The notes below the pieces were generated by a model. The model searched no databases and was not told the origin of the DNA. It saw only the letters and a program-made list of their open reading frames with translations. A DNA stretch of 64,000 nucleotides, taken from an uncultured Candidatus Saccharibacteria bacterium (GTDB lineage: Bacteria; Patescibacteriota; WWE3; 2-01-FULL-39-13). Each line of letters starts with the position of its first letter. Position 1 is the stretch's first letter. A program made the position numbers and the translations under genes. The stretch covers positions 7,735-71,734 of the forward strand of contig CAYJKF010000003.1 of NCBI GenBank assembly GCA_964370865.1, written 5' to 3'. Shown piece by piece: positions 17,946-54,437 of the stretch.

Positions 17946-18216
17946 TTATGCAAACTATCATTCGTAATATCAAGTGAACACTACATTTTTTACGTTTACC
18001 ATGTATTGATTTTGTATTATTAATTTATTGGTGTTAACTACGAATATACAAATTATCCTGTACGTATATTCTTCTAGATGGCTGGGCATCGTGGATGACG
18101 TTAGAACCATTATCCAAGATCAATCGGAGTATGTTTACATTCCAGATATAGCACATCAGCTTTAATTATCTTCTACTTTCTATAAAATTACCCCACCATA
18201 CCAATCACTATACTTT

Positions 18217-19212: not shown

Positions 19213-19296
19213 TCATCACGATGACGAATAAAACAAAACCGATATTAATGATCTTTTATTTAAAGGGAGGTTATATTATCACCTGTAGTTTATAGG

Positions 19297-22200
19297 CTAC
19301 TTAAATTCTACTACTCTATCACGACGAAAGGTTTTGTTAGTCCCCGAAAAACTATCGTATGCTGAGAAATAAGTATCGTTAAACTCAATCAGCGATAATA
19401 ACCGCCAATACTTCGCACTACCAGCCTTAGTAGATTGATAGCGGATATTTATGTTTTTAGAAACACGATCCCCCAAATATTCGCCAAATGCGTCTTGATT
19501 AACTTCACGCGCACCGACACTAAATCCCTTATTTACTGAGGAGTTGGGCTTCTGAACTTTTGTCGTGGAGGTCCCATTAACATCGTGTACGTTATCTACT
19601 TCTTCGTCAGAGAAATTAGTGATATACATTTCTTTTGGGGCATCTTCAGGAGCGATTGTTTCTTTTTCTAATTCCTTAACTACATCCGTCTTGCTGATCA
19701 TGGATTCGTAATCGAAATACTCCTTTATGTAATCAATTAGAGCTTTTTCCTCTCCCGGTTGGTCGCTTATCCAATCGAAATACGATATACGATAGAAATT
19801 CCAGCCAGCCGCTTCTAGGACACCCTGGCGCTCCCAGTCGCTCTGAATATATACTTGACCGTCTCCTCCTTCGAAATGTGTAGGGCCGTCACATTCAATG
19901 GCTAACTTTTTGCCATTATGAGATACCGTTATATCAATCCTAAAACCTAGTGATTCAGTTTGTGTTTCTATTGTGTAATCGTTAGGATCTAATTCTTTAG
20001 CCAAGAAGCTATATATATTCTCTTCAAAACCCGAATCAAACTGTTGTGCAGATTTGATGTGTCGGCGAGAAACAATTCCAAACTTATCAATATATTCCAA
20101 GTACTTTTTAATCCAGATACCATCCGGCCATAGCTCTGTTGCAATCGATGTAACGGTATGGACTTGTAATCTCGCACGACTAAACGCAACATTCACTCGC
20201 CCTGCCGCGATATCTTTACGAATCTCACCTCCTTCTCCTGTTAGAGCTATATAACGCCTCTTATCGCTGGGGTCTTTGATGACGAAAGAGTAGATTACTA
20301 TATCTCTTTCATCTCCTTGAATCCCATCAATAATAGACACCTTTATGTTTTCATCAGAAATAGTTTTACGAATCAACTCCGCCTGTTCATTGAAGAAGGT
20401 TAAAATAGCAATAGTTTTATCTTTTAAAGCCGCATCAATCTTTATCTCCTCTAATATTTGCTGAATTTTCCTTACTTCTGCGATATTGGTTTTATCGGAA
20501 GTTTCTTCTAGTTCGTTTGGAGCTACTAAATGGGTTAATAAAATGCGTCCTGTATTTTTGTAAGGCACAATATTATCGTTTATCGCTTCGAGATTACGAC
20601 CTATCGGTTCATAAAATGACTGATTAGAGAAACCTATCAGCTCTTTGGGAGAACGATAGTGGTACTTAAGTGTTTTGGTTTTAAAACCATTTAAATGGGC
20701 GATGTCCATAACAGATTTAACGGTGTCTTCTTCTGCTTTGATTTGGTAGACATCAGGAATCTTGTGCTTTTTGGCAATCGCTTTCAATTGATCATTAGAC
20801 TTAAACATAATATTATCGTCTCGCATTTGTAATGTATCCCCAAAGAAAATAGTGTGTTTAGCACGGAACATAGAAGGAAATGCGTATGCAAAGTTGCATT
20901 GAGATGCCTCATCAATAATCACATAATCAAATGCGTTCATTTCTAAAGGTACAATTCGACTTACATCATCCAAACTCATCATCCAAATCGGAAGTACTTT
21001 AGTCATTGCCTTGAAATTATCTTCGTTATGTTTAAGCCTATCAAATGTTTTATTGGCTTTTTTACTTTTTGTTAGACTTCTAGCAACTTGTGCAAGAGTC
21101 GCTTTCAAAGATTTGTCGTTATTCGCTTCCCCGATTCTAGTTAAGATACGATTTCGGACATAATTAGTAGTATTAGTTCTGTAAAATTTTCTTATATCCT
21201 TTATTTCGCGATTTAATTCATTTGCCGAATATAATGACACCTCGTTAATCTGTTCAGAAATCTTAGTATACCGAGTTAAATCACTAAAGACCTGCTCCTC
21301 ACCTCCATTTTCTATAATAATCTTTTTAATATTTGTGAATGCCGTTGCGGGTATATTTTTACTCTGTAATAAATCCTGTACCAACGCGCGACTACGAGCG
21401 ATTGCCTTAATTTGACTGGTATAATTAAAATATTCCACAAGACTATCGAGTAGTTGTAAACGTGCTGACTTAGTGTTGTCTGAGAACAGTATTCTCTCAA
21501 GCTCAATATAAATTTCCTGAAGTATAGTTCGGCAGTATTTCTTTAAAGCATTATGTAGTTTTGTGTTATTAACTCTAATACCAAACCAACTGGATCGCTC
21601 AGGCATCTTAGACTTAAAATAGGTTTGAATATCTGTTATTGAATCGATGGTCGACTGGTAATTAATTTCAAGTGACTTAAACTTGGTGTCCAGAGCATTT
21701 ATTAATTTGCCGTGGACGTTCTCTGTATCTTTGATCTTTGACACCATCTTCGCAATGAATTTTTCCTGTTCCAATACTTGGTCATACCATTCACGACTGA
21801 TTCCGTAGGTATACAATGGTTCAAGATAATCCAGTTTTCTACGCTCAACGTATAATGTATATATATATCTTTCATTCTCGATATTTTTATCAAATATATT
21901 GGATCGGTCGGCGAGTAAGGCCAGAGGCTCTTTTAAGTCACCAACTTTACTTTTTTGGAATTCTCGATTTAAAGCTTGAAGGGTAATTGCTGCGCTATCC
22001 TTTTCGTCAGATTCATTATACATTTTTGAAGTCTTGTCTGGTATGTAACCAAATAAGAATGGAATATCTAATCCTTTCAGCTTATCCTTTACTCCACGAA
22101 TGGCTTGATCCTTTTGACTTGCAAAAAGTACGCGTTTACCTGTTGCTGCAAAATGAACTAACAAATTGGCAATTGTCTGTGACTTACCTGTACCTGGAGG

Positions 22201-23181
22201 ACCTTCAACAATTACTGCTTTATTTGAAGTGATTCCTAATACTTTTAATTGATACTTATCGTAGTCAAAGGGGAAGAATATTTCAGTACTTCCGTCTTCC
22301 GAAACATGCTGTTCAATTGTCATATCCTCATCTGAAACCCAACTTCCAAGAGACGTTTTAATTAAATCCGTGTCATCAATAGCTGCGATTGCTTTAAGGT
22401 CCTCCGCCAAGAAATAATTTGTCTTGTTGGTAATGCAAACAATACTAAATTCGAAAGAAGGAATAAGGGTAATTGACTTTGCATCGGCTCTATCAAGCTG
22501 CGTTCTTATTATTGCCCACAGTTCCTCAATGAACTCATCTTCAAGAGGCAAAATTGTTCTTCCTTCTGATTCTGCAGCCGCTATAAACGTAAATATCTCA
22601 TCATAGTATTGCTGCGGTAAGTAGTTCTTCAGTGGACCACATAGTATTTCAATATAATTGTCGGGCAGTTCAAGAATGACATTAACGCCAACCGCGGTGT
22701 ATTTGAGATTAATCGCAGCTACCGGTAACTGTATAAGGGGTGCTTCATATTTTTCGTATTCTTCGCTGTAATCGGCCTCTAAAATTCGTCGGGATTCAAA
22801 GGACACAAAACCGGTTTGAAGAACAACTCTTTTAGTGTACTCATCTGTTTTTATCTTAGTATCAATCTCTTGGATTTGATTTAAGAGTTCTCGGTCACGT
22901 GCAATACGAGCCTCTGCTTTACGCTGTTCCTCACTTTTGTCATCTTCCGGGGTATTGGGGTCAAAGTGACTATCTAATGATATTACTAGAGAAAGAGTGA
23001 TGCTAGCCATATCATTCTCAAAGATCAGTTCGGAAATTGGTAGCAAGTTAACATCTATTTTATCGGTTTTAACTGGCCTACTCCTCGGACCACTGCTTGA
23101 AATCAAACCCACATAGTCGAGTCCATAATTAGCTAATTGGCGAATTGATATTGGTATTTTTGACATACTATATAGAAGCAA
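19297..23181 (-). CDS. Large Upf1/DNA2-like SF1 helicase (AAA_11/AAA_12 type) with an N-terminal about 330-aa unknown (DUF4011-like) region and a C-terminal DUF559/Vsr-like endonuclease domain
   Basis: Walker A VIVEGPPGTGKSQTI, Walker B VIIDEASQ, motif V IDGIQGDERDIVIYSFV, motif VI RVNVAFSRAR. C-terminus ...LAIECDGPTHF...DWERQGVLEAAGWNFYRISYFDW matches the DUF559 core. Confidence 0.8.
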   Translation of the reverse strand: MLLYSMSKIPISIRQLANYGLDYVGLISSSGPRSRPVKTDKIDVNLLPISELIFENDMASITLSLVISLDSHFDPNTPEDDKSEEQRKAEARIARDRELLNQIQEIDTKIKTDEYTKRVVLQTGFVSFESRRILEADYSEEYEKYEAPLIQLPVAAINLKYTAVGVNVILELPDNYIEILCGPLKNYLPQQYYDEIFTFIAAAESEGRTILPLEDEFIEELWAIIRTQLDRADAKSITLIPSFEFSIVCITNKTNYFLAEDLKAIAAIDDTDLIKTSLGSWVSDEDMTIEQHVSEDGSTEIFFPFDYDKYQLKVLGITSNKAVIVEGPPGTGKSQTIANLLVHFAATGKRVLFASQKDQAIRGVKDKLKGLDIPFLFGYIPDKTSKMYNESDEKDSAAITLQALNREFQKSKVGDLKEPLALLADRSNIFDKNIENERYIYTLYVERRKLDYLEPLYTYGISREWYDQVLEQEKFIAKMVSKIKDTENVHGKLINALDTKFKSLEINYQSTIDSITDIQTYFKSKMPERSSWFGIRVNNTKLHNALKKYCRTILQEIYIELERILFSDNTKSARLQLLDSLVEYFNYTSQIKAIARSRALVQDLLQSKNIPATAFTNIKKIIIENGGEEQVFSDLTRYTKISEQINEVSLYSANELNREIKDIRKFYRTNTTNYVRNRILTRIGEANNDKSLKATLAQVARSLTKSKKANKTFDRLKHNEDNFKAMTKVLPIWMMSLDDVSRIVPLEMNAFDYVIIDEASQCNFAYAFPSMFRAKHTIFFGDTLQMRDDNIMFKSNDQLKAIAKKHKIPDVYQIKAEEDTVKSVMDIAHLNGFKTKTLKYHYRSPKELIGFSNQSFYEPIGRNLEAINDNIVPYKNTGRILLTHLVAPNELEETSDKTNIAEVRKIQQILEEIKIDAALKDKTIAILTFFNEQAELIRKTISDENIKVSIIDGIQGDERDIVIYSFVIKDPSDKRRYIALTGEGGEIRKDIAAGRVNVAFSRARLQVHTVTSIATELWPDGIWIKKYLEYIDKFGIVSRRHIKSAQQFDSGFEENIYSFLAKELDPNDYTIETQTESLGFRIDITVSHNGKKLAIECDGPTHFEGGDGQVYIQSDWERQGVLEAAGWNFYRISYFDWISDQPGEEKALIDYIKEYFDYESMISKTDVVKELEKETIAPEDAPKEMYITNFSDEEVDNVHDVNGTSTTKVQKPNSSVNKGFSVGAREVNQDAFGEYLGDRVSKNINIRYQSTKAGSAKYWRLLSLIEFNDTYFSAYDSFSGTNKTFRRDRVVEFK

Positions 23182-23238
23182 TTAACTCCTAGCCGTATTA
23201 TACAGCGAAAATTATTGCTTGTAGTGTATATTTAAAGT

Positions 23239-23874
23239 ATGTTTAGTCTTTCTACTACCAATACCGAGATAAAAGGAGAAATTGGCTATTTCAAACTTCA
23301 GAATTGGTGGCTGTCGAGCTTTACTCAAAAAGAACGAGACCGTATTGAAGAGATTTTTCACCCGATGGGTTCAAATTCAAACGACAAATCTCTTACAGAA
23401 TATACGATTCGTTGGACTTCTCAGACTGCAACTGGATTTCTTCAATCACTTGCGAGTTGGTTTAATAATCCGCAAGACAGAGAAATTGCGAAAAAGATAA
23501 TCGCGAAAGCCGAGGAATTAGCTCCCCTAAGCGGAGATATTCTCGACCAACATTTTACACTACAACAAAAGATGCAGATTTACTACCCTGAACGAGAAAC
23601 AAATCCATTGGCACTAGAAAAATCTATATCAGCTTGCAAAGAACAAATTGCTTTGGCTTCAAAAGCTTCAAAAGCCTTTCTGAAAGAATATCCCAATCAA
23701 CCCTTGCCAGTTCATGCAGGTTACTCTAAGCTCAGAATTATCCTTGAGAAGCAAAAGAAATATGATGAGGCAATAGAGCTTTGTTTAGAAGCAAAAGTTC
23801 AAGGTTGGAATGGTGACTGGGATAAACAGATAGAAACTCTCAAAAAGAAAAAAGAAAAACTTTCACACAGTTAG
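23239..23874 (+). CDS. Hypothetical protein
   Basis: ORF only. Lys-rich C-terminus. Confidence 0.35.
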   Translation: MFSLSTTNTEIKGEIGYFKLQNWWLSSFTQKERDRIEEIFHPMGSNSNDKSLTEYTIRWTSQTATGFLQSLASWFNNPQDREIAKKIIAKAEELAPLSGDILDQHFTLQQKMQIYYPERETNPLALEKSISACKEQIALASKASKAFLKEYPNQPLPVHAGYSKLRIILEKQKKYDEAIELCLEAKVQGWNGDWDKQIETLKKKKEKLSHS

Positions 23875-23899
23875 AATTATCACTACTCCACCATTAATC

Positions 23900-24349
23900 C
23901 TAGTACTTGAACTGATTTTTCGCATCTTCCCTTTTTGTACCGAATTCTTCCTCCATCATTTTCAGAAATTTATTATATACATTGTCAGCCTGCAAGTTGC
24001 CTTCTTCTGTAATAAAAACATGTAAGTCTTCATTACTAGCAATTACTTGTGTCTGCCTTGGAAGCCCATCTACATACGCCCACACCAACTTAGTGGCTGA
24101 AATATCACCATTCAAAGCCCTATCTACAATCTTTTTCACTAGCTTCTCTTTACGACTTAAACCTGTCTCACTATCAAGCTCATCCAAATACTCGCGGACA
24201 CAATCAGCAATTGTCTGACCTTTCAATGGCCTGCCTTTAGGATTACCTGAGACACCTTTTGTAAACGGCCTACCAATCACTCTGCTGTTATTCTCCTGTT
24301 TATCAGCAATTTCCATTAGCTTAATTATATACCAAGAAATGTCTATCAA
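23900..24349 (-). CDS. Phage/plasmid-associated small protein with a GNPxGRP motif (DUF5681-like)
   Basis: VSGNPKGRPLKGQ motif, recalled as common in phage/plasmid small proteins. Start uncertain. Confidence 0.4.
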   Translation of the reverse strand: MIDISWYIIKLMEIADKQENNSRVIGRPFTKGVSGNPKGRPLKGQTIADCVREYLDELDSETGLSRKEKLVKKIVDRALNGDISATKLVWAYVDGLPRQTQVIASNEDLHVFITEEGNLQADNVYNKFLKMMEEEFGTKREDAKNQFKY

Positions 24350-24391
24350 AGACTGTGAGTTGTTGGACTAATCTAATTTAGTCTATTTCAT

Positions 24392-27079
24392 TTGTGCAAT
24401 AATAAAAATATTCAGTATTTCAACTATAATCTAGGAATGGAAGCGGATAAATTATTATTCTTAGCAAAATTGCGTAAAATTGCCGAACAAAGAGGTGGGC
24501 TATGTCTCTCAAATAGCTATTATAGTGCAAAAACATCCATGTTATGGCAATGTAGAACTGGACATCAATGGTATGCAATTCCAGATTCAATTCGAAGAGG
24601 ATCATGGTGTCCTTACTGTTCCGGTAAACATCAGAGTATAAAAGATATGGAAGAGATTGCCGCCAAAAGAAATGGTAAATGTTTATCCTCTCATTTCGAT
24701 AAGGCGAAGACAAAACTATTATGGGAGTGTAACAAAGGGCATCAGTGGTATGCAACTCCAGATAAAGTTAAAAGGGGATCATGGTGTCCTCAATGCATTG
24801 GTAGAGGTAAGACGATTAATGATATGAAACAAGTAGCTGAATTGAATGGAGGAGTATGTCTATCCACAGAACTCATCAATTTGAATACTAAGCTGTTATG
24901 GAAATGCAAACACGGACATATATGGGAGGCAAGTGGCACTTCTGTATATACCAATGGTAATTGGTGTGCTAAATGTGGTTATAAAAAAGTAGCTAAGCAG
25001 AAAATAAAGCATACCCTATCAGAAGCTAAACAAATAGCTACAGAAAGGGGGGGTTATTGCGTAAGTAAAAAGTATATTTCATTTAACGCAAAATTATCTT
25101 GGAAGTGTCAAAATGGACATCTCTGGAAAGCTTCCTTTGGTAATATTCTTAAAGGAAGTTGGTGCCCAATATGTTCTTCTCATCGAGGTGAGAAAATATC
25201 TCGATTAATTTTAGAAAAATTATTTGGGCGAGAATTTCCCAAATCATATCCTAAGTGGTTAACAAGTAAGTCTCATACCCAACTAGAACTAGATGGATAC
25301 AACGACCAACTCAAAATTGGACTAGAATATCAGGGACAGTTGCATTTCAATAACATTGACCACTTTTATAATACTGATGAAGAGTTTCAGAACCGCCAAG
25401 AAACTGATAGACTTAAACGCAAATTGTGTCGAAAACACAACGTAAAATTATTGGAAATTCCATATACAATCGACTACGACAAAATTGAAAGCTACATTCG
25501 TATATGGTTAGTTGAAAATAAAATTCCACAAGATACAATTAATCCCCACAAAATAGATATTACTCCCTATGAAATATATTCAGCTACAGAAATGGATCAA
25601 CTAAAAGAAACTATAAGAAATCGTGGAGGCAATATAAATATTCAACAATATACCGGATCAGTAGGACGTATAGAAGTAATATGCAAAAATAACCACCGTT
25701 GGGAAACTACACCTACAAGTATAAAGTCTGGTAGGTGGTGCCCATACTGTTTAGGGAGATATAAAAGTATAGACGATATGCAAACCTTAGCATTACGAAA
25801 TGAAGGTTTATGTTTATCTGAAAAATATATAAACGGAATTACCCCACTTAAGTGGAAGTGCAAGGCCGGACACATATGGTATGCAAAGCCAAGTAACATT
25901 ATATTTGGAAAATGGTGTCCAAGATGCGTTGGGCAAAATAAAACAATACTTGATATGGTTACTCTAGCAAAAAAATTTGGAGGCAAGTGTCTTTCTCCAA
26001 TTTATATAAATGTAAAAACTCCACTTCAATGGGAATGCAGTAATGGTCATGTATGGGAGGATACACCCGATGCAATAATCCAAGGAAAACGTTGCCCATA
26101 TTGTAATCGGCAGTATTATACTATCGTCGAGGCTAAAAAGCTTGCAACAACTAAAAAGGGGGAGTGTTTATCTACTACAGATTATAAAGGGAAAACTAAT
26201 CTTCTTTGGAAATGCAATAAAGATCATAGTTGGAATGCCTCTCCGTTTGTTATCGAATCAGGAAAATGGTGTCCAGTATGTGCGAAAGAGAAGCGAATTA
26301 CTATTAATAAGGCAAGGAAGTTAGCAGAAAGTAGAGGTGGGGCATGTATTTCAGATCTCTATGTAAACTCGTTGACTCCATTATTATGGAAGTGTGCAAC
26401 AGGCCACGAATGGAAGAGCACATATCAGAACATTCGAAAGGGGAATTGGTGTCCGTATTGTTCAAAAAATAGAAAGATCACGAAGGATGTTATAGATGAT
26501 TTTATCAAACCTAGAGGTGGCATATGCCTGTCGAATGGCCCATTCAAATCTAAGATGGATCTTCAATGGATGTGTAAATATGGCCACAAATGGTCTACAC
26601 AGTATACTAATATACAACGAGGGCATTGGTGTCCTATATGTGCAAAGCAAACATCAATCCAAATTTCTGATATTAAGAAATTTGCTAATAGAAAGCATGG
26701 AGATTGCTTATCTACGTCTTATAAAAACAACTCTCAATTATTGACTTGGTCTTGTGAACAAGGACACGTTTGGAAAGCAAGTTATTCAAATGTTAGTCAA
26801 GGTACATGGTGTCCATATTGCCGAGGGAAATATAAAACAATTAAAGATATGCAAGAACTCGCAAAGCCTAAAGGTGGTAAATGTTTATCGAGTGTATATA
26901 TAAGCGCAAAAACCAAACTAACATGGGAATGTAAATATGGGCATATTTGGGAAGCTACACCTGATAGTATCATAAGTAAACATACATGGTGTCCAATCTG
27001 CAAGAGTCAACGCTTTAAACTTACACCTGAGATAGATAAGATTAGTTTGGAAGCAACTAATGATACACTTGCATCATAA
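24392..27079 (+). CDS. Protein with 12 tandem Cys/Trp/His zinc-ribbon-like repeats (DUF4379 / 'probable zinc-ribbon'-like). After repeat 4 the array is interrupted by a DUF559/Vsr-like endonuclease core.
   Basis: Repeats of about 58 aa matching GGxCLSxxYxxxxTxLxWxCxxGHxWxAxPxxIxxGxWCPxC, counted directly. Insert contains LELDGY...LEYQGQLH...DRLKRKLCRKHNVKLLEI, which resembles iEvDG..H...D.R...L...G.vlRf of DUF559. Confidence 0.7.
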   Translation: MCNNKNIQYFNYNLGMEADKLLFLAKLRKIAEQRGGLCLSNSYYSAKTSMLWQCRTGHQWYAIPDSIRRGSWCPYCSGKHQSIKDMEEIAAKRNGKCLSSHFDKAKTKLLWECNKGHQWYATPDKVKRGSWCPQCIGRGKTINDMKQVAELNGGVCLSTELINLNTKLLWKCKHGHIWEASGTSVYTNGNWCAKCGYKKVAKQKIKHTLSEAKQIATERGGYCVSKKYISFNAKLSWKCQNGHLWKASFGNILKGSWCPICSSHRGEKISRLILEKLFGREFPKSYPKWLTSKSHTQLELDGYNDQLKIGLEYQGQLHFNNIDHFYNTDEEFQNRQETDRLKRKLCRKHNVKLLEIPYTIDYDKIESYIRIWLVENKIPQDTINPHKIDITPYEIYSATEMDQLKETIRNRGGNINIQQYTGSVGRIEVICKNNHRWETTPTSIKSGRWCPYCLGRYKSIDDMQTLALRNEGLCLSEKYINGITPLKWKCKAGHIWYAKPSNIIFGKWCPRCVGQNKTILDMVTLAKKFGGKCLSPIYINVKTPLQWECSNGHVWEDTPDAIIQGKRCPYCNRQYYTIVEAKKLATTKKGECLSTTDYKGKTNLLWKCNKDHSWNASPFVIESGKWCPVCAKEKRITINKARKLAESRGGACISDLYVNSLTPLLWKCATGHEWKSTYQNIRKGNWCPYCSKNRKITKDVIDDFIKPRGGICLSNGPFKSKMDLQWMCKYGHKWSTQYTNIQRGHWCPICAKQTSIQISDIKKFANRKHGDCLSTSYKNNSQLLTWSCEQGHVWKASYSNVSQGTWCPYCRGKYKTIKDMQELAKPKGGKCLSSVYISAKTKLTWECKYGHIWEATPDSIISKHTWCPICKSQRFKLTPEIDKISLEATNDTLAS
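24452..27010 (+). repeat. Intragenic tandem coding repeats, about 174-bp period (4 copies, about 420-bp interruption, 8 copies)
   Basis: Repeated protein units produce periodic DNA. These are not CRISPR: there are no short identical repeats or spacers, and the region is coding. Confidence 0.7.
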
Positions 27080-27097
27080 TATCATCGATTAATTAGC

Positions 27098-27733
27098 ATG
27101 TATTATTCTAATAAATTTATCAAAGAATATTTGCATAATGATATTCAAAAATCTATTGAAAACGATGTTAAAACGGCGATTAAAGGTTACTCAGAACTCT
27201 GGATTAAGGAAACACGCGAAGCTGGTTTTTTCGCAATACCAAGGTTACTCTTCCCAGAAATAGACGGACTAGGATCGTATATTACAGGAAACTCAAATAC
27301 TACTACGATAAATATAAAAAGTTATTTGAGTATGGTAATGTCGCAAATTGATGATAACTACAAGAAATACGCTGGTTTTATAACAATTATCTTCAGACAC
27401 GGATTGCTACATCAACATGCTCCAAAAAAATTTCGTTACAACGGGAAGACAATTGGTTGGGCAATTCAAGTTGGCTCACCTAATTTACCAATATCTGCTC
27501 TCCGAAAATCCCACCTAATTTTTAGTGGTTCTCATCTATGGATACATGCAAATGTTTTTTGTGATGATTTAATCAAATCAATTGACCTGTTCGAACCATT
27601 AGTTATCCAGAAATATAGGGAACATTTTATAAAATCTTACCGCGAGCAAAATCGCAAACTCTCCATACATGACTCAATAAGACCGAATGTGATAGAACGG
27701 GATGATTTTAATTTTCTCAAAGACTTAAAATAA
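27098..27733 (+). CDS. Hypothetical protein
   Basis: ORF only. Confidence 0.35.
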   Translation: MYYSNKFIKEYLHNDIQKSIENDVKTAIKGYSELWIKETREAGFFAIPRLLFPEIDGLGSYITGNSNTTTINIKSYLSMVMSQIDDNYKKYAGFITIIFRHGLLHQHAPKKFRYNGKTIGWAIQVGSPNLPISALRKSHLIFSGSHLWIHANVFCDDLIKSIDLFEPLVIQKYREHFIKSYREQNRKLSIHDSIRPNVIERDDFNFLKDLK

Positions 27734-27794
27734 TCCCGTTCAGTAAATGCATATAAATTGTATTTACACGGACGACAAACAATAAAATCCCAAA

Positions 27795-28034
27795 TTAGAA
27801 ACACTCAGAATATAGGCTTTCAGATGAAAGTGAGCCACTTGAAATCGCAAACTGTTCAACACAACTAAAAAATGAATCGTAATTCGCTTCTGATTCTATA
27901 TATTCGCCATACCACTCTTTAGCAGTTTGACCTTCGTATTTTCCGTTAGAACCTATACCCCAAAAAATAGAAATAATTACAATTGTGCAAATAACTCCGC
28001 CTATAAAACCACCTGAAGAATTTTCGTCTATCAT
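27795..28034 (-). CDS. Small membrane protein, hypothetical
   Basis: One TM helix. Confidence 0.3.
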   Translation of the reverse strand: MIDENSSGGFIGGVICTIVIISIFWGIGSNGKYEGQTAKEWYGEYIESEANYDSFFSCVEQFAISSGSLSSESLYSECF

Positions 28035-28039
28035 TTGTG

Positions 28040-28762
28040 TTAATAGCTAAAACTAATGTCTACTCCATTTTTTTTGTACTTTATAATTGTCGGCAAAACT
28101 TCCTCTTCACCAAACACATTTTTAAAAAAGTCTAATCCTTCTCTACGATCTACGATGAAACCTAGATTCCGAAAATCATCGTCATCAATGTTTCTTGCGA
28201 AATGAGGAAATTCACATAATGTGATGAACTTATTTTTCTCATTAGAATTATCCTCATCTCGGTATTCGAGACATGGTAATAGCATCCACTCATAGATTCC
28301 CTGGGGACTTTTCACAAGCTTTTCATAGATGCTAAATAAAATATGATTTTCAAGACCGTCGTCATCACCTGCAACTGTTGCAGAATAAAGTAGATTAGTC
28401 GTTTGATCCCGAAATATGATACCGCATCCTTGATACGAATTAATAAAGTAAGCGTTTTCAGAAGACAAATATGTCAAGTTTACTCTAGATCTTAGTCTAA
28501 ACTTTCTGAAATCAGAATTAGAACTCTTCAATTTATCTTTATCAGTTTTTGTCCAATCTTTAAACTCTTTACCTTCAGTTGCACTAGCAATACCGCAGAG
28601 TTCGCCAAATTTATCAAATTTAAGAACTGATTGCACAGCATCGATAGACATACTGTATGAGTATCCACTATTCCTTTCCTTTTCGAGATTTTTGATTCTT
28701 CTATCAATCTGGTAATAAAAATAACCTGCAATTACTATTACAATTACGGTTGTAAGCCACAT
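28040..28762 (-). CDS. Membrane-anchored hypothetical protein
   Basis: N-terminal TM helix. No recognised motif. Confidence 0.35.
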   Translation of the reverse strand: MWLTTVIVIVIAGYFYYQIDRRIKNLEKERNSGYSYSMSIDAVQSVLKFDKFGELCGIASATEGKEFKDWTKTDKDKLKSSNSDFRKFRLRSRVNLTYLSSENAYFINSYQGCGIIFRDQTTNLLYSATVAGDDDGLENHILFSIYEKLVKSPQGIYEWMLLPCLEYRDEDNSNEKNKFITLCEFPHFARNIDDDDFRNLGFIVDRREGLDFFKNVFGEEEVLPTIIKYKKNGVDISFSY

Positions 28763-28811
28763 ATTAATTATTACTCTCTTCGCTCAGTAATAGTTTACTG
28801 AGAATTGAGAA

Positions 28812-29129
28812 TTAACTACGTAGTATATCTTGTAAATCCTTCTCCAAAGATTTCCTTTGTTCTTCAGTTAATTTTTCCATATTTTCTTCGGCAATCTTCG
28901 TAATATCCTCATTTGTAATTTGCATTTTCCTTTGAATAGCAATCAATTTGGTCTCATTCCATACTTCAAAAACACGAACAAGCTTGCGAAGGTAATCTAC
29001 TTTCATGTCTAGCCCAATCAAAAGTGCCATGAATGCATACACTAAAAACAATCTCAAATCAATTAAAATTAGAATTGTTGCTAGAATTAACTCAAATAAA
29101 TAGGTGACGATCTTACTTGTTTTAGACAT
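28812..29129 (-). CDS. Small membrane protein (start taken at internal MSKTSK to avoid overlap with the upstream HTH gene)
   Basis: Two TM helices. The ORF track gives 28812..29225. Confidence 0.3.
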   Translation of the reverse strand: MSKTSKIVTYLFELILATILILIDLRLFLVYAFMALLIGLDMKVDYLRKLVRVFEVWNETKLIAIQRKMQITNEDITKIAEENMEKLTEEQRKSLEKDLQDILRS

Positions 29130-29343
29130 TAGTTTTAACCTCCGTAGAATTGACCTGTTTTTTTTCTGAAGCCAGAAACTTCTCAATATCTTCCTTTCTA
29201 TAACGCCGATCTCCTCGTTGACCAAATCTAACCGCTTTTAGAATCCCATTTTTATCCCATTTTCTCAAGGTATTTTGGTGGACTTTCAAACTCTGTGCTA
29301 CTTCCGATATTGTCATGAGGTCTGAAATTAGTTGTTTTTCCAT
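29122..29343 (-). CDS. Excisionase/MerR-type helix-turn-helix DNA-binding protein (Xis-like)
   Basis: MTISEVAQSLKVHQNTLRKWDKNGILKAVRFGQRGDRRY is a typical excisionase-family HTH. Confidence 0.7.
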   Translation of the reverse strand: MEKQLISDLMTISEVAQSLKVHQNTLRKWDKNGILKAVRFGQRGDRRYRKEDIEKFLASEKKQVNSTEVKTNV

Positions 29344-29387
29344 AGACTAACTTTACTTAACTATACTCTACTTTATTATACACATAT

Positions 29388-30329
29388 TTGGTAAAATATC
29401 AGGCAAATACTAAGATATTTTTGAACAAAATTAAAATGAATATTGATTTAGAATGCATTGGATTGTTAAGTTTGATTCTACAAGACAGTCCAAATGACCG
29501 ACAATTTATCCTTGCAATATTGGCTAGGTCGAATACAGACCCATCAAAAATTTTCTTCGATCCAACTACAGAATATCCAGTATTTTATCGATATGCAAAT
29601 AACAAGATCCCTTTTTATCTAATGGGGAAAGGAGTATTAACTAACATACCTCGTAAAGGATTTTCAAAAAGAATTTTTTCCTCCTACTACCTGTCATTTG
29701 CTGAATCCATTATTAATAGCTCTAAAGACCAGGACGTATCTAAAAAGTTGTTAAGTGTTTCTAACTTCATTACTTTGGAAAATAGTACTGGATATAGAGA
29801 TGCCGAGGCTTTTTTGATATTCAGAGATAAGGCATTAGTTTTTATTCGAAATTATGCTACCACACATAAGGAGGAAATAAATTCCTTCCTGGGCACTGAA
29901 CTTAGCAAAGATATATATAAATCAAATGAAACCAATAAGTCGGAAGCCCAGAACAAACCAAGACCTTCAGAAAATCAACTAGTTTGGAGCGATTTAGTCC
30001 TCAACCTTGACCGATGTGTACTGAGATATAAGGACAATTCTCCCACCGAGATTTCTATTGACACAAAAATAGCAAAGTTTCTTATGATACTAATGAATAA
30101 CCAGGATAAAGTCATTCAGTACAAAGATATCGCAAAGGAATTGCAATTGAATTGTTGGAATAATGAAGTGGATAATAAAAATGTTGCTCGCGATGTTCAA
30201 TCTACAAAGAGAGATTTGTTGCGTTTTCTTGAGGATAAAGTAGGAATGACCAAAAAGATTACATCAAATATGATAATAGTCAAAAAGAATGTGGGATTCA
30301 AATTAAGTCACTCGAGCTCTTCACACTAA
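29388..30329 (+). CDS. Hypothetical protein, possible C-terminal winged-helix regulator
   Basis: ORF only. Confidence 0.35.
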   Translation: MVKYQANTKIFLNKIKMNIDLECIGLLSLILQDSPNDRQFILAILARSNTDPSKIFFDPTTEYPVFYRYANNKIPFYLMGKGVLTNIPRKGFSKRIFSSYYLSFAESIINSSKDQDVSKKLLSVSNFITLENSTGYRDAEAFLIFRDKALVFIRNYATTHKEEINSFLGTELSKDIYKSNETNKSEAQNKPRPSENQLVWSDLVLNLDRCVLRYKDNSPTEISIDTKIAKFLMILMNNQDKVIQYKDIAKELQLNCWNNEVDNKNVARDVQSTKRDLLRFLEDKVGMTKKITSNMIIVKKNVGFKLSHSSSSH

Positions 30330-30398
30330 AAAATCACAATAAAATCATAAAAATTACCACAGAAAAATCGTCGAGTATTCTTCACTATTGCGTCAATA

Positions 30399-30689
30399 TT
30401 GAGTCAGTTCAAATTGTTAAATATTACAATGACTCTAGATACAAAAGATTATTACTTCACTTCAGATCTTGCATTGGCAGCTGCTATATCGCTGTACTTC
30501 CCTCTTGAAGTAATTGACAGAACAAATCCCAACAAAGCTCAATTTCTTTTTAAAAGAGATGAAAGTCTCGATCAGCTTATTGAAGCTTTCTGGAGAAATG
30601 AAATGAAAGTTGATCCGCAAATATATTTCAATCAGCTAAAAGTCACTAAATCGAGGTTATACGAGAAAGAGAAAGATGTTATCAGATGA
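30399..30689 (+). CDS. Small hypothetical protein (mobile-element cargo)
   Basis: ORF only. Overlapping small-gene array typical of phage-like regions. Confidence 0.3.
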   Translation: MSQFKLLNITMTLDTKDYYFTSDLALAAAISLYFPLEVIDRTNPNKAQFLFKRDESLDQLIEAFWRNEMKVDPQIYFNQLKVTKSRLYEKEKDVIR

Positions 30690-30951
30690 GCAAGTTAAAA
30701 AATTTCAGAGGCTCTATATGTTCGTTACGGATAGAATCGATTTGGCAACATCATTAATTGCACTCGGGCATTATTTGCACGAATGTTTAATTCAAGATTT
30801 TAAAATAATATTTGTATTCAAAGACACAGAGGACTGTATAAAGATAAAGAAAGACTGGAATAATTGCACTTTATATCCAAACATTAAATTATATCTCCTT
30901 GCTCAAAAACAAATTAATAAAATCATTTATGATGGAGGGCTTTATGCTTAG
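30676..30951 (+). CDS. Small hypothetical protein
   Basis: ORF only. Confidence 0.3.
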   Translation: MLSDEQVKKFQRLYMFVTDRIDLATSLIALGHYLHECLIQDFKIIFVFKDTEDCIKIKKDWNNCTLYPNIKLYLLAQKQINKIIYDGGLYA

Positions 30952-31120
30952 TGAAGTAGCCATCCTTGAATTCAAACGCCTCTATGAGTCAGATACGGGC
31001 ATCATAATCACTTATGAAGAGGCATTATCCAAAGCAACCGAGTTCGTTTCATTCATAAAAATTTTCATTAAGAGCAATAAGTCGATTAATAATACACAAC
31101 CAAATGATGATGAAAACTAG
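30899..31120 (+). CDS. Small hypothetical protein
   Basis: ORF only. Confidence 0.25.
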   Translation: MLKNKLIKSFMMEGFMLSEVAILEFKRLYESDTGIIITYEEALSKATEFVSFIKIFIKSNKSINNTQPNDDEN

Positions 31121-31823
31121 CATGGAAGAAGCCTTATATATTCGGAAACAATCAGCTCGAATGAAAAGATATATAAAAACACCGAGGCCTCTGATTTTCT
31201 TATTTTCACTTAAATACTTAACTCCAACTGCCTTTGGTTTATATATGTACCTAGCTATGTATGCTGGTTTCGATAGTCGGAACTCACAGTATGGAGTGAT
31301 AGAATTAAAAACTAGCGAACTTGCATCCTTACTCGGATTTAATATAAAAACAATTCAAACAAATCTAAAAAAATTATCTCAAATAAATGCAATTCAATTC
31401 ACTAAGGACAACTATATATCAATCACAAACTATGAAACTCTTTTTGTCAAAACTAAAGAAACATTTCCAAAGAATGAAGACGCGTTATTTTTACTAGAGA
31501 ATTATTTTTCCATTAATTCGCAAAATAATTCCAATAAACAGAAATATATTTCCACAGTTGAGAAAAATATTTCCAATCAAACTCTAAATAATGATAATCA
31601 GATTAAGGAACAAACCCCGTATACTGTAAGTTCCTATAAGGTAAGTAAAGTTAATAATAATGATGAAGAAGAAACAGATGATAATGATTATAAGCGTATA
31701 AAGTACATCAATGGAGACAAATATGAACACTCTCAAGGAACTTGGATGAAAGTAGACAAGTTTACAGATGAGGAGTTAGATGATATTTCCGAAAAGATTA
31801 ATGAAGATGTATCAAACTGGTAA
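31104..31823 (+). CDS. Putative winged-helix DNA-binding / replication-organizer-like protein with an Asn-rich C-terminus
   Basis: HTH-like segment TSELASLLGFNIKTIQTNLKKLSQ. Context is next to the recombinase. Confidence 0.3.
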   Translation: MMMKTSMEEALYIRKQSARMKRYIKTPRPLIFLFSLKYLTPTAFGLYMYLAMYAGFDSRNSQYGVIELKTSELASLLGFNIKTIQTNLKKLSQINAIQFTKDNYISITNYETLFVKTKETFPKNEDALFLLENYFSINSQNNSNKQKYISTVEKNISNQTLNNDNQIKEQTPYTVSSYKVSKVNNNDEEETDDNDYKRIKYINGDKYEHSQGTWMKVDKFTDEELDDISEKINEDVSNW

Positions 31824-31876
31824 TAGATGTAGAATTAATTAGTGAATGTATCTTTTGGAGGGTTGAAATAGCCGAA

Positions 31877-33658
31877 TTGGGTATAACCCTCAAAAGTTGT
31901 GCATTCACAACCAGTTCGGCTATCTTAGTCATGAAACAAATTAAACCAACACAACCAACCAAATATATTATCTACTGTCGTAAAAGTAGTGAGGAAGAAG
32001 ACCGACAAATACTCAGTCTAGAAGCACAAAAAAGAGAACTAGAAGAATTTGCACAAAAATCTAACTTAAATGTTATAGATACACTCACTGAATCACAAAG
32101 CGCATTTAAAACAGGACGACCAATATTTAGCACTCTTCTCTCTAGAATTCAGAAAGGTGAAGCAAATGGAGTCATCTGTTGGCAACCAAATCGTATAAGT
32201 AGGAACCCAAAAGATGGTGGCGAATTTATTTATATGATGGATCTTGGTTTCATCAAAGAGCTGAGAACTCCATACAAGTCATTTGTGAACTCTGCTGATG
32301 ATAAATTCTTTCTCAACCTTGAATTTGGAATTGCAAAAAAAGATTCTGACGATAAATCCGAAAATGTAAAAAGAGGAAACAGACAAAAAATATTAAATGG
32401 AGACATTCCGGGATGTGCTCCACAAGGATATCTGAATGTAACTGATCCGATCACAAAAAGAAAGTATGTCGATATTGACCCAAGTCGTTTTCCTTTGATA
32501 CAAAAAGCCATACGACTTATTCTTTACGAAAGCAAAACTCCAATGCAAGCAATGGAAATATTAAACAATGAATGGGGGTATAGATCACGACAGACGCTAA
32601 AAATGGGTAATAAGAAAATGTCACCGAGCACATGGTATAACCTACTCAACAATCAATTTTACTATGGCAAAATACTAAGAATCGACACAGAAACAATAGG
32701 AAATCACCCACCAATGATAACCGAAGATGAATACAATCGAGTCCAGATTCTTCTTGGGAATAGAGGAAGACCAACCGTAAAAAAAGTCGGTTTTTATGCT
32801 AAAGGAATAATAAAATGTGGAGAATGTGGAGGAAATCTTACGGCTCATGATAAATGGCAAATAATATGTCCTGTTTGCAAAAATAAATTTCACAAATCAA
32901 TTGACAGAAAAGAATGCCCTATTTGCTCTACTGCAATCGCTAATATGAAGGATCCCAAATTACTATATTATGTTTACTATTCTTGTGTAAATAATAATCA
33001 TGGGAAATGCAAACAAGGATCATTAACTGAAACCACTCTAGAAAATACTGTAATGGAAAAACTAAGCAAGATTAGACTTAAAGATACCTACAGAGACTGG
33101 GCAATAAAATATTTAAATGAAATTGCAGATGATGACATCGAAGTGTATCAAAAAGGAACTGAAAATCTGGAAAAGAGGAAAACGGAAATAGATAAAACAT
33201 TAGATAATTTACTTAAAGTATTTATATCTCCAATTAATACAGATAAAGCAATTATGTCGGATCTTCAATATATAAATCAAAAAGAAAGACTCACAAATGA
33301 GCTGAAAGAAATTGGAGAGGATGTATCAAAGGCAGAAAAATACCATAGGAATTGGAGAGATGAGATAATAAAGAAATTCAACTTCGCACATGACGCACCT
33401 AAGAGATTTGAAACAGCAGATACAAATGAAAAAGCGACCATACTATCTAGTATAGGTTTGAACCTGACTGTACTTGATAGAAAACTGCACATTCAAGGGG
33501 ATCCAATCTTCTTCCTGATCGAAGAAGGTATAGAAAAATCAAAAGTGATAGAAGATAAGTTAGAACCTGTGAATATGCTTACAGTTAGTGAACAATCGGA
33601 GTGTATCGAGGAGCTTCATCAGACTTGGCTGCCCAACTTGGATTCGAACCAAGATTGA
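31877..33658 (+). CDS. Large serine recombinase (resolvase/invertase catalytic domain, recombinase domain, zinc-ribbon, coiled coil). Likely start is MKQIKPT near 31931.
   Basis: Catalytic-Ser N-terminal domain YIIYCRKSSEEE...GVICWQPNRISRN. Cys pairs CPVC / CPIC. Long coiled-coil C-terminus. 3' end overlaps tRNA-Gln antisense. Confidence 0.85.
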   Translation: MGITLKSCAFTTSSAILVMKQIKPTQPTKYIIYCRKSSEEEDRQILSLEAQKRELEEFAQKSNLNVIDTLTESQSAFKTGRPIFSTLLSRIQKGEANGVICWQPNRISRNPKDGGEFIYMMDLGFIKELRTPYKSFVNSADDKFFLNLEFGIAKKDSDDKSENVKRGNRQKILNGDIPGCAPQGYLNVTDPITKRKYVDIDPSRFPLIQKAIRLILYESKTPMQAMEILNNEWGYRSRQTLKMGNKKMSPSTWYNLLNNQFYYGKILRIDTETIGNHPPMITEDEYNRVQILLGNRGRPTVKKVGFYAKGIIKCGECGGNLTAHDKWQIICPVCKNKFHKSIDRKECPICSTAIANMKDPKLLYYVYYSCVNNNHGKCKQGSLTETTLENTVMEKLSKIRLKDTYRDWAIKYLNEIADDDIEVYQKGTENLEKRKTEIDKTLDNLLKVFISPINTDKAIMSDLQYINQKERLTNELKEIGEDVSKAEKYHRNWRDEIIKKFNFAHDAPKRFETADTNEKATILSSIGLNLTVLDRKLHIQGDPIFFLIEEGIEKSKVIEDKLEPVNMLTVSEQSECIEELHQTWLPNLDSNQD

Positions 33659-33699
33659 CGGCTTCAAAGGCCGCTGTCCTACCGTTAGACGATCGGGCA
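33626..33699 (-). tRNA. tRNA-Gln (UUG)
   Basis: Cloverleaf folded by hand: acceptor UGCCCGA/UUGGGCA, anticodon loop CUUUGAA, T-loop TTCGAAT, discriminator G and CCA encoded. Confidence 0.85.
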
Positions 33700-53938: not shown

Positions 53939-54015
53939 TGGTCGGGGAGACAGGACTCGAACCTGTGACCTCTTCGTCCCAAACGAAGCGCGCTAGCCAA
54001 CTGCGCTACACCCCG
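53939..54015 (-). tRNA. tRNA-Pro (UGG); U6:U67 mismatch in the acceptor stem
   Basis: Hand-folded cloverleaf: D-stem GCGC/GCGC, anticodon loop UUUGGGA, T-loop TTCGAGT, CCA encoded. Confidence 0.75.
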
Positions 54016-54339
54016 AAAATCTTGTATCTACTTAATTGGCAATCCTATAGTTTTACCGACGTTCTTTAGTACGCCAACCACAATTGACAGGACGAGTTTA
54101 CAAAAATAGAAAAAAACCTTTAGAATTCGAGACAGAACAAATGCTGCATACTGTTCAGCCTGGTTTTTCTTAACATCCATATCATACTGGTTTTGTACGA
54201 AGTTGTCTTGCATTATGAAATTATACGTTAAATGTAGATTTTAAGCATCATATACGTTTATAATATATATGCGTTACAATAACAAAAACGGTCAGTTTGT
54301 ATGTTGTGTCTAGAAATACCCACAACTGGTGCCTTTTAT

Positions 54340-54425: not shown

Positions 54426-54437
54426 AGGCATGGATTT

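What the first reader, a model, noticed from the sequence alone, without database searches (positions are those of the whole stretch)
27098..33699. Integrated mobile element terminating at tRNA-Gln
A large serine recombinase is transcribed toward, and overlaps, the 3' half of tRNA-Gln. Upstream lies an excisionase-type HTH, a replication-organizer-like wHTH protein and an array of short overlapping unknown ORFs. All of this is typical of a prophage or integrative element at a tRNA attB. The about 400-bp AT-rich spacer between the tRNA and the real PBP1A start (about 34096) fits an att/promoter region. The left boundary, and hence whether the helicase-nuclease and ZnR-nuclease genes are cargo, could not be fixed by eye.
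Basis: partly seen in the sequence, partly recalled or inferred. Interest (0 to 1): 0.55.

Follow-up and report, generated by a model that had tools for sequence, protein, structure and literature searches.

The report
Serine-integrase mobile element at tRNA-Gln
A 15.5-kb mobile element sits at the 3' end of tRNA-Gln in a candidate-phyla-radiation bacterium, inserted by a serine integrase from a clade that appears to target tRNA ends and whose own gene tail is swapped on insertion.

Summary
tRNA-Gln(UUG) lies at 33626-33699 (-), and a 593-aa large serine recombinase (LSR, 31877-33658, +) ends 33 nt inside its 3' part.

The interpretation as an integrated element is supported, but the element is larger than the finding. 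It spans 18085-33631 (15,547 bp). The only repeat is 6 bp, TGGCTG, at 18079-84 and 33626-31. It covers the tRNA CCA end, the discriminator and the first two acceptor-stem bases.

Joining the LSR ORF across this core to 18085 restores 26 codons (GIVDDVRTIIQDQSEYVYIPDIAHQL*). These match the C-termini of family members that do not abut a tRNA.

The element-side half-site at attL carries TTAGAACC 5 nt farther from the core than the tRNA T-loop TTCGAACC. That is the published attP/attB offset of serine integrases.

Five other metagenomic elements (6.8-11 kb; tRNA-Asn or tRNA-Gln) show the same in-frame split.

Relatives with the same tRNA-Gln/PBP1A synteny lack the element (PBP1A 73, 63 and 55-56% identical). 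Two others carry related elements whose LSR (73-78%) is far more conserved than the host genes (50-58%).

Cargo includes the helicase-nuclease and the Zn-ribbon nuclease. No phage structural genes were found. No empty site or circular form was seen in the element's own population.

The parts
18079..18084 (+). attL core TGGCTG, identical to the tRNA-Gln 3' end (CCA, discriminator and two acceptor-stem bases). The predicted crossover dinucleotide is TG at 18083-18084.
   Evidence: The pattern TGGCTG-N16-TTMGAACC occurs once in the window against 0.01 expected. The symmetry of the attP consensus places the centre at core nt 5/6.
18085..18108 (+). P' half-site of attL, GGCATCGTGGATGACGTTAGAACC. 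GGA sits at the same offset as in the tRNA, and TTAGAACC (18101-18108) sits 5 nt farther from the core than the tRNA T-loop motif.
   Evidence: The published 5-bp attP/attB shift was read in PMC3783163.
18085..18165 (+). Displaced 3' end of the LSR gene: 26 codons (GIVDDVRTIIQDQSEYVYIPDIAHQL) plus a TAA stop, in frame with LSR codon 585 across the core.
   Evidence: It aligns with the native C-termini of more than 20 homologues. An HMM of 24 native tails, built without the window, scores it best of 3044 six-frame segments (E=0.002, next best 0.24), and the match starts exactly at 18085.
18247..19212 (+). Cargo gene, 321 aa, no family found.
   Evidence: Called gene. No Pfam, PHROG, PADLOC or NCBIfam hit of note.
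19297..23181 (-). Cargo gene: SF1 helicase (AAA_11/AAA_12) fused to a MTES_1575 restriction-endonuclease-like domain. It resembles anti-phage proteins.
   Evidence: Pfam. PADLOC PDC-S37 9.9e-72, Hhe and MkoA. NCBIfam ProA and Hhe, both partial and far below their cut-offs.
23239..23874 (+). Cargo gene, 211 aa, unknown function.
   Evidence: phrog_22434 at 2.2e-07, a family of unknown function.
23900..24349 (-). Cargo gene with a DUF5681 domain.
   Evidence: Pfam 4.1e-11. phrog_26239.
24392..27079 (+). Cargo gene: at least 10 DUF4379 treble-clef zinc-finger repeats (177-nt period) around a nuclease-like core.
   Evidence: Repeat families D1-D6. Pfam DUF4379 2.5e-57 in 10 stretches. phrog_559 'HNH endonuclease' 1.9e-115 and phrog_681 6.6e-99.
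27098..29225 (.). Four cargo genes of unknown function: 211 aa (+), 79 aa (-), 240 aa (-), 105-137 aa (-).
   Evidence: No family hits.
29122..29343 (-). 73-aa HTH_17 protein of the excisionase family. It is a candidate regulator or directionality factor.
   Evidence: TIGR01764 at 38.5 bits against a cut-off of 28.8. phrog_66.
29388..31823 (+). Conserved LSR-proximal module: a 297-313-aa protein, two DUF5659 proteins, a 58-73-aa protein, and a 239-aa wHTH protein (HTH_36, possible replication role).
   Evidence: Pfam. Homologues sit at the same relative positions in L079. DUF5659 and the small protein recur in L096, L155, L161 and L164.
31877..33658 (+). Large serine recombinase, integrated form. 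The last 9 codons and the stop are read from the tRNA.
   Evidence: The profile matches solved serine-integrase structures, SPbeta YokA and TP901-1 among them. Y33, R35 and S37 are invariant in 36 homologues.
33626..33631 (+). attR core TGGCTG. The P arm lies to its left, inside the LSR coding sequence. The B' arm to its right is the acceptor stem and T-arm of the tRNA.
33626..33699 (-). tRNA-Gln(UUG). It stays intact because the element supplies identical terminal bases.

Best explanation
Positions 18085-33631 are a 15.5-kb integrative element inserted by its own large serine recombinase at the 3' end of tRNA-Gln.

Shown:
- The two ends share only TGGCTG.
- The attR junction is the LSR 3' coding sequence followed by the tRNA. 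The attL junction is chromosome followed by a tRNA-like half-site.
- Recombining the two cores in silico would give a circle. In it the LSR ORF continues for 26 more codons into a tail that is conserved in the family. The chromosome would keep an intact tRNA-Gln.

Inferred:
- The crossover is at TG, core nt 5-6.
- The integrase reads the T-stem/T-loop of the tRNA (GGA TTCGAACC) as the attB half-site.
- It reads a mimic with a 5-nt insertion (GGA CGANG TTMGAACC) as the attP half-site. This matches the recombinase-domain-fixed, zinc-ribbon-domain-shifted geometry described for serine integrases.

Because attP lies inside the LSR gene, integration replaces the native tail (...WLGIVDDVRT...) with tRNA-encoded residues (...WLPNLDSNQD).

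The LSR-proximal module (wHTH protein, DUF5659 proteins, small ORFs) is the conserved backbone. The rest is variable cargo, including two nuclease genes of defence or homing-endonuclease type. How the element moves between cells is unknown.
For: 1. The attL signature is unique in the window: TGGCTG-N16-TTMGAACC occurs once at 18079-18108, with 0.01 expected.
2. The rebuilt 611-aa ORF ends in [DE][DEK]VRT plus a YxxIP-like tail, as in more than 20 homologues that do not abut a tRNA. An unbiased tail HMM picks 18085 as the best of 3044 six-frame segments (E=0.002).
3. The VRT codons in 26 attP-type loci are almost only GTT/ATT, CGA/AGA and ACC/ACT. This points to a DNA-level motif, TT(C/A)GAAC(C/T), at nt 23-30, against nt 18-25 in tRNAs. 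GGA holds the same position in both kinds of site, and TCC/GGA are symmetric about core nt 5/6. The 5-bp shift is published for LI integrase (PMC3783163).
4. The pattern is general. About 35 of 80 metagenomic homologue loci have a minus-strand tRNA (Gln, Asn, Ser, His, Leu, Trp) overlapping the end of the LSR ORF. At least 55 of the top 120 homologues end in a tRNA read-through of the ...DSN type. Five further elements (L096, L131, L155, L160, L164; 6.8-11 kb) have an in-frame displaced tail at their attL.
5. Empty tRNA-Gln/PBP1A sites exist in L172 (PBP1A 73% identical), L171 (63%) and L007-L009 (55-56%).
6. The LSR is 78% and 73% identical to those of L079 and L081. The adjacent host genes are less conserved: PBP1A 52/50%, PolX 53/55%, DnaJ 58%, DnaK 74%.
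7. Genes to the left of attL look chromosomal: histidine kinase, ApbE, AspRS, a P-type ATPase.
Against: No empty site and no circular junction were found in the element's own population. All 23 long contigs read for each of four marker genes carry the element, and the 611-aa circular-form protein is absent from the protein collection.

The left half-sites (P and B arms) show no recognisable inverted copy of the T-loop motif, so the site model is asymmetric.

The window's left flank has no orthologues next to tRNA-Gln in any relative. The boundary therefore rests on the att signature alone, not on synteny.

In L079, L081 and L164 the attL is preceded by a remnant of an LSR 3' end. Arrays therefore form, and the 15.5 kb could include material from older elements.

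No activity was measured.
Confidence: 0.82

Rival explanations
1. The current element is only the LSR-proximal module (about 29.1-33.6 kb, or the reader's 27.1-33.7 kb). On this view the attL at 18079 is the relic of an older element that joined a tandem array, and 18-29 kb is decayed older cargo.
For: Only 29.36-33.66 kb is shared with the L079 element. Tandem arrays and LSR remnants exist in L079, L081, L164 and L169. One 5,999-nt contig spans 27907-33905.
Against: No second P'-type site or LSR remnant lies between 18.1 and 31.8 kb. The tail at 18085 is intact, in frame and shares the exact core of this LSR. The 5,999-nt contig overruns the tRNA by 206 nt and has about 6x coverage, so its ends do not look like element ends.
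Confidence: 0.1
2. The element is a fixed, immobilised remnant. It was integrated by the LSR in the past but no longer excises. This is compatible with the anatomy described above.
For: The element is present in every long contig of the population. No circular form was found. One sample carries an LSR split by a frameshift into 310 and 237 aa (L005). The L079 tail is frameshifted.
Against: In the window, the LSR, its catalytic motif, both cores and the 26-codon tail are all intact. The LSR is more conserved than host genes across lineages.
Confidence: 0.3
3. The region is a prophage integrated at a tRNA.
For: The LSR matches phage integrase phrog_95. DUF5681, the ZnR endonuclease and the HTH_17 protein have PHROG matches.
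Against: None of the 18 or so genes scanned against Pfam and PHROGs has a capsid, portal, terminase, tail or lysis match. The LSR finds nothing in IMG/VR. Related elements are only 6.8-11 kb.
Confidence: 0.05
4. The overlap between the LSR and the tRNA is a coincidence, and the recombinase is an invertase or resolvase unrelated to the tRNA.
For: None beyond a weaker match to phrog_125 'DNA invertase' (1.5e-18).
Against: The same in-frame read-through into tRNAs occurs across the family. The junction has no insertions or deletions among three lineages. The matching attL exists.
Confidence: 0.02

Closest known systems
Large serine integrases of temperate phages and integrative elements (LI/A118, phiC31, Bxb1, TP901-1, SPbeta SprA/YokA)
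   Same: Same domain order: resolvase catalytic domain, recombinase domain, zinc-ribbon domain. The family profile matches solved YokA, TP901-1 and phiC31 structures. The att identity is tiny (6 bp). The distal motif is shifted 5 bp between the attP-type and attB-type half-sites, as published.
   Different: The target is the 3' end of a tRNA gene. TIGER authors stated that this had not been reported for serine integrases and found it in only 14 of 297 cases (PMC7192596). attP lies inside the integrase ORF. Only the right-hand half-sites show the motif.
tRNA-integrating genomic islands with tyrosine integrases (Islander type)
   Same: The integrase sits next to the tRNA 3' end, the tRNA is kept intact, the cargo is variable, and tandem arrays and remnants occur.
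   Different: The enzyme family is different. There is no displaced tRNA fragment of 15 nt or more.
Tycheposons of Prochlorococcus
   Same: They are small cargo-carrying elements at tRNA genes. Many carry replication genes, and 27 of 937 carry a large serine recombinase (10.1101/2020.12.28.424599). The related element in L169 carries a Prim-Pol/D5 primase.
   Different: The host phylum differs. Most tycheposons use tyrosine recombinases. No sequence relationship was tested, and the split integrase tail is not mentioned in the passages I read.
SSV-type integrases of archaeal fuselloviruses (from memory, not checked here)
   Same: attP lies inside the integrase gene, so integration partitions the gene. 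The target is a tRNA.
   Different: Those are tyrosine recombinases that are split into two large parts. Here a serine recombinase loses only its last 26 codons and stays otherwise intact.

Membership tests
Large serine recombinase (serine integrase) | N-terminal resolvase catalytic domain with the catalytic serine motif | tested here: met
   PF00239 at 2e-16. Y33, R35 and S37 (YCRKSS) are invariant in 36 homologues.
Large serine recombinase (serine integrase) | Recombinase domain followed by a zinc-ribbon domain with four Cys | tested here: met
   PF07508 at 23.1 bits (cut-off 21.1) and PF13408 at 33 bits (cut-off 25.3). C314, C317, C331, C334, C347 and C350 are invariant.
Large serine recombinase (serine integrase) | Coiled-coil motif inserted in the zinc-ribbon domain | not tested
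   No structure was predicted. Residues of about 400-520 look helical by eye only.
Large serine recombinase (serine integrase) | Short att sites with a central dinucleotide and no long direct repeat | tested here: met
   6-bp identity in the window and 5-13 bp in five other elements. The position of the dinucleotide is inferred from symmetry.
Large serine recombinase (serine integrase) | Distal (zinc-ribbon-domain) motif 5 bp farther from the centre in attP than in attB, on both half-sites | tested here: inconclusive
   Met on the right half-sites: nt 23-30 against nt 18-25. No conserved motif was seen on the left half-sites.
Large serine recombinase (serine integrase) | Catalyses attP x attB recombination | not testable with these tools
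   This needs an in vitro or heterologous assay.
tRNA-targeting island of the tyrosine-integrase (Islander) type | Tyrosine integrase | tested here: not met
   The only recombinase present is of the serine type.
tRNA-targeting island of the tyrosine-integrase (Islander) type | Displaced tRNA 3' fragment as a direct repeat at the far end | tested here: not met
   The 25-mer has no second copy at up to 3 mismatches. Short-word BLAST found none. No partial tRNA was found in 1-34000 at E up to 10.
Prophage | Capsid, portal, terminase, tail or lysis genes | tested here: not met
   Pfam and PHROG scans of the element's genes found none. The small ORFs with no family could hide some.
Integrative element (general) | Presence/absence polymorphism at a conserved site among relatives | tested here: met
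   Empty sites in L172, L171 and L007-L009. Occupied sites in the window, L079 and L081.
Integrative element (general) | Excised circular form or an empty site within the same population | tested here: not met
   Neither was found in assembled contigs. Raw reads were not available.
Anti-phage defence gene (Hhe, ProA, PDC-S37) for the 1294-aa cargo protein | Full-length match above the curated cut-off | tested here: not met
   ProA 224.9 bits against a cut-off of 1500, and Hhe 146.5 against 2000. Only the helicase-nuclease part matches.

The most novel reading that the evidence does not exclude
A whole clade of Patescibacteria serine integrases would use the universal end of tRNA genes (CCA end, acceptor stem, T-arm) as attB. 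It would carry a tRNA-mimicking attP half-site, with the canonical 5-bp insertion, inside its own reading frame. Integration and excision would then switch the enzyme between two C-termini: a native tail in the circle and a tRNA-encoded tail in the chromosome. The swap itself would help set directionality or expression, acting as a self-encoded switch without, or alongside, a separate directionality factor.
Probability: 0.3. Interest if true: 0.8.

Novelty: new variant of a known kind. Interest (0 to 1): 0.62.

Why it matters
Serine integrases are the main tools for inserting large DNA. Their natural targets are almost always protein-coding genes, and how they choose sites is only partly understood.

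This case offers a clade with predicted attP/attB pairs on several different tRNAs. The attB half-site is the most conserved sequence in biology, the T-arm. The attP half-site can be read directly from the integrase gene.

That makes the proposed geometry testable on natural variants: the recombinase domain stays fixed while the zinc-ribbon domain shifts by 5 bp. It also suggests programmable landing sites at tRNA genes.

For Patescibacteria, whose mobile elements are poorly known, it defines a family of small cargo-carrying elements (6.8-15.5 kb). It also provides a simple rule for finding both ends.

The split integrase tail is a possible new layer of directionality control.

Tried and rejected
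- Searching the window with the P' sequences of L079 and L081: this gave only a chance-like hit inside the ZnR repeats at 26035. I rejected it because it lies within an intact ORF.
- Empty site in the element's own population: exact-protein look-ups of the LSR, PBP1A, the 211-aa protein and the histidine kinase all showed the same context.
- Exact right-flank DNA pattern in JGI metagenomes: no match.
- LSR against IMG/VR: no relatives.
- Circular-form LSR protein in the protein collection: absent.
- Terminal repeats on whole contigs that carry homologues: none.
- Left-flank synteny: the 230-aa neighbour is an ORFan. The left flanks of L007-L009, L171 and L172 share nothing with the window's left flank.
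- The two 211-aa proteins are not paralogues.
- An apparent inverted repeat in the L079 attP (CAAACATG...CATGTTGG), noted by eye: rejected, because its centre would lie outside the shared core.
- GC content does not mark the element.


Full report
**Observation.**
ARAGORN and Rfam place tRNA-Gln(UUG) at 33626-33699 on the minus strand. ORF 31877-33658 (+) encodes a 593-aa protein with Resolvase, Recombinase and Zn_ribbon_recom domains. It matches phage integrase phrog_95 at 2.9e-64. A profile of 36 homologues matches solved serine-integrase structures, including SPbeta YokA, TP901-1 and phiC31. Y33, R35 and S37 are invariant in those homologues. The last 33 nt of the ORF are the tRNA's 3' part, read as ...W L P N L D S N Q D stop.

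**Host and site.**
The window comes from a Patescibacteria genome of the WWE3/Microgenomates type. The best PBP1A match among GTDB species genomes is 56%. The order tRNA-Gln, PBP1A, sortase, PolX, DnaJ, DnaK, GrpE, HrcA is conserved in relatives.

- Five relatives have no recombinase at the site: L172 (PBP1A 73% identical), L171 (63%) and L007-L009 (55-56%).
- Two lineages, L079 and L081, carry an LSR that reads into tRNA-Gln at exactly the same junction, with no insertion or deletion.
- Those LSRs are 78% and 73% identical to the window's. The adjacent host proteins are less conserved: PBP1A 52/50%, PolX 53/55%, DnaJ 58%, DnaK 74%.

An integrase that is more conserved than DnaK across these hosts, together with a patchy presence, indicates horizontal movement.

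**The expected repeat is absent.**
The tRNA 3' 25-mer has no second copy at up to 3 mismatches. Short-word BLAST and a permissive Rfam scan found no tRNA fragment to the left. This argues against a tyrosine-integrase type of site. It is normal for a serine integrase.

**The clue from the family.**
The LSR has 456 homologues at E<1e-10, mostly from Microgenomates and WWE3 bins. Their C-termini fall into two kinds.

- The first kind ends ...W[L/R]xxxDSN[P/Q/H]. This is the in-frame translation of a reverse-complemented tRNA 3' end, where TGG is the CCA and GATTCGAAC is the T-loop.
- About 35 of 80 metagenomic loci have a minus-strand tRNA overlapping the end of the ORF: Gln-UUG/CUG, Asn, Ser (three anticodons), His, Leu or Trp.
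- The second kind has no tRNA nearby. It ends ...[W/x]Lxxx[D/E]xVRT[Y/W/F]... followed by 10-40 further residues.
- In 26 such loci the V, R and T codons are almost only GTT/ATT, CGA/AGA and ACC/ACT. What is conserved is therefore a DNA motif, TT(C/A)GAAC(C/T). It is the T-loop motif, but it starts 23 nt from the first core base instead of 18 nt.
- Anchored consensus sequences show GGA at the same position in both kinds of site, and TCC/GGA symmetric about core nt 5/6.

Rutherford et al. showed for LI integrase that the zinc-ribbon-domain motif lies at positions 16-24 in attP and 11-19 in attB, while the recombinase domain stays in register (PMC3783163). I therefore read the second kind of C-terminus as attP (P-core-P') and the first kind as attR (P-core-B').

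**Finding attL in the window.**
I scanned the plus strand left of the LSR for the P' motif. One site came with the right core at the right distance: 18079-18108, TGGCTGGGCATCGTGGATGACGTTAGAACC. The pattern TGGCTG-N16-TTMGAACC is unique in the window, with 0.01 expected even when one mismatch is allowed. The site lies in a 310-bp intergenic gap.

Joining LSR codon 585 (ending at 33631) to 18085 keeps the frame. It adds GIVDDVRTIIQDQSEYVYIPDIAHQL and a stop at 18163-18165. This aligns with the native tails of more than 20 homologues, including the DDVRT motif and a Y-x-x-I-P element.

As an unbiased test, I built an HMM from 24 native tails, leaving the window out. I searched it against all 3044 six-frame segments of the window. 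The top hit started exactly at 18085 (E=0.002), and the next best had E=0.24.

**Generality.**
The same rule found in-frame displaced tails in five other tRNA-adjacent loci. These are L096, L131, L155 and L160 (tRNA-Asn) and L164 (tRNA-Gln-CUG). The elements are 6.8-11.0 kb and the attL/attR identity blocks are 5-13 nt. All blocks share GCT[C/G], which corresponds to core nt 3-6. About 0.4 chance matches were expected by my own estimate.

In L079, L081/L085 and L164 the attL is preceded by a degenerate copy of an LSR 3' end, which makes the junction attP-like. L169 has two LSRs with native tails in tandem. Elements therefore pile up at the tRNA and decay. The window's attL has no such remnant.

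**Anatomy.**
The element is 18085-33631, 15,547 bp.

- Cargo:
  - a 321-aa protein of unknown function;
  - an SF1 helicase fused to a MTES_1575 nuclease domain, with partial matches to PDC-S37, ProA and Hhe that fall far below the curated cut-offs;
  - a DUF5681 protein;
  - an 895-aa protein with at least 10 DUF4379 zinc-finger repeats around a nuclease core, matching phrog_559 'HNH endonuclease' at 1.9e-115;
  - several proteins with no family.
- Backbone: an HTH_17 excisionase-family protein, a 297-aa protein, two DUF5659 proteins, a 58-aa protein, the wHTH protein and the LSR. Parts of this backbone recur next to related LSRs.
- No capsid, portal, terminase, tail or conjugation gene was detected.
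- IMG/VR holds no relative of the LSR.
- Genes to the left of attL are ordinary chromosomal ones.

**Mechanism, with status.**

- Shown: two directly oriented sites share a 6-bp core.
- Shown: recombining them in silico yields an intact tRNA-Gln in the chromosome and a circle with a full-length integrase gene.
- Inferred: the crossover is at TG (18083-84 and 33630-31).
- Inferred: the T-arm serves as the attB half-site.
- Inferred: the mimic with the 5-nt insertion serves as the attP half-site.
- Speculative: the swap of the C-terminus on integration has a regulatory role.
- Unknown: current activity, the directionality factor, and the route between cells.

**Weak points.**

- No empty site or circular form was found in the element's own population. 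One sample has a frameshifted LSR.
- The left half-sites lack a recognisable motif.
- The window's left flank is lineage-specific, so synteny cannot confirm the boundary.
- Part of the 15.5 kb could descend from older array members.

**Comparison and novelty.**
This is a serine-integrase integrative element, which is a known kind. What is unusual is a clade that consistently targets tRNA 3' ends.

- The TIGER authors wrote that use of a tRNA gene by a serine integrase had not been reported, and they found it in 14 of 297 cases (PMC7192596).
- 27 of 937 tycheposons and related elements carry a large serine recombinase.
- My literature searches found no description of this clade, of the T-arm mimic, or of an LSR gene split by its own attP.
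- The closest analogy for the split gene is the SSV-type tyrosine integrase, which I cite from memory.

I rate the finding as a new variant of a known kind, with interest about 0.6.

Noticed in passing
window 24392-27079 (+): An 895-aa protein built from at least 10 copies of a 59-aa DUF4379 treble-clef zinc-finger unit (177-nt period) on both sides of a nuclease-like core at about residues 260-400. It matches phage families phrog_559 (1.9e-115) and phrog_681 (6.6e-99), which are annotated as HNH or other endonucleases.
   Followed up: partly
window 33560-33567, and the same position in family members: The near-invariant L/F-E-P motif of the LSR, about 70 nt upstream of the core, is encoded by TTAGAACC or TTCGAACC. 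This is the same 8-mer as the P' motif and the T-loop motif, in direct orientation. In L081 the left breakpoint of the LSR 3' remnant falls exactly on this 8-mer. I could not tell whether this is a DNA site, a recombination hotspot or coincidence.
   Followed up: partly
L081 1-750 (same in L085 1-230); L079 24-89; L164 about 518-560: attL is preceded by degenerate copies of LSR 3' ends. In L081 it is also preceded by the C-terminal part of a second, distant LSR that has a native tail and the same TGGCTG core. This suggests that new elements insert between a resident element and the tRNA, even though that site is formally attR-like.
   Followed up: partly
L169 85-11743: Two LSR genes with native (attP-type) tails and TGGCTG cores lie about 10 kb apart. 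Between them are a Prim-Pol/D5 primase, an HTH_3 and M78 peptidase pair, and an Omega_Repress-like protein. A 3577-aa cadherin/Big-repeat protein gene follows. There is no tRNA in the 21.7-kb locus.
   Followed up: no
contig ends: L002 ends at window 33679; L006 starts at 33534; L170 starts exactly at the tRNA-Gln 3' end; L173 and L174 start inside tRNA-Gln; many JGI contigs end about 100 nt after the LSR: Independent assemblies break at or inside the tRNA next to these integrases. The cause could be strain heterogeneity at the att site, or identical tRNA sequence shared between genomes. The data do not distinguish the two.
   Followed up: partly
L005 8032-9812 (window about 31877-33658): In sample ERZ13692942 the LSR is called as two genes of 310 and 237 aa. 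The contig differs from the window by 11 mismatches and one gap over 14.4 kb. This looks like a strain variant with an inactivated integrase.
   Followed up: no
window 30429-30951 (+): Two adjacent, overlapping DUF5659 paralogues. DUF5659 proteins recur 2-3.5 kb upstream of the LSR end in L079, L096, L155 and L161. They are candidates for an accessory or directionality factor.
   Followed up: partly
window 33847-34095: The PBP1A gene is called with an 83-codon AT-rich N-terminal extension (839 aa). Homologues range from 646 to 1023 aa, so the true start (33847 or 34096) is unresolved.
   Followed up: no
L172 2303-2308: The closest relative with an empty site has TGGTTG instead of TGGCTG at the tRNA-Gln 3' end, a different discriminator base. 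The mismatch is at core nt 4, next to the predicted crossover dinucleotide. It might affect whether this element can use that site.
   Followed up: no
window 53939-63393: Seven further tRNA genes (Pro, Leu, Arg, Lys, Gly x2, Val) lie in the last 10 kb of the window. None has a recombinase next to it in the ORF lists I examined.
   Followed up: no
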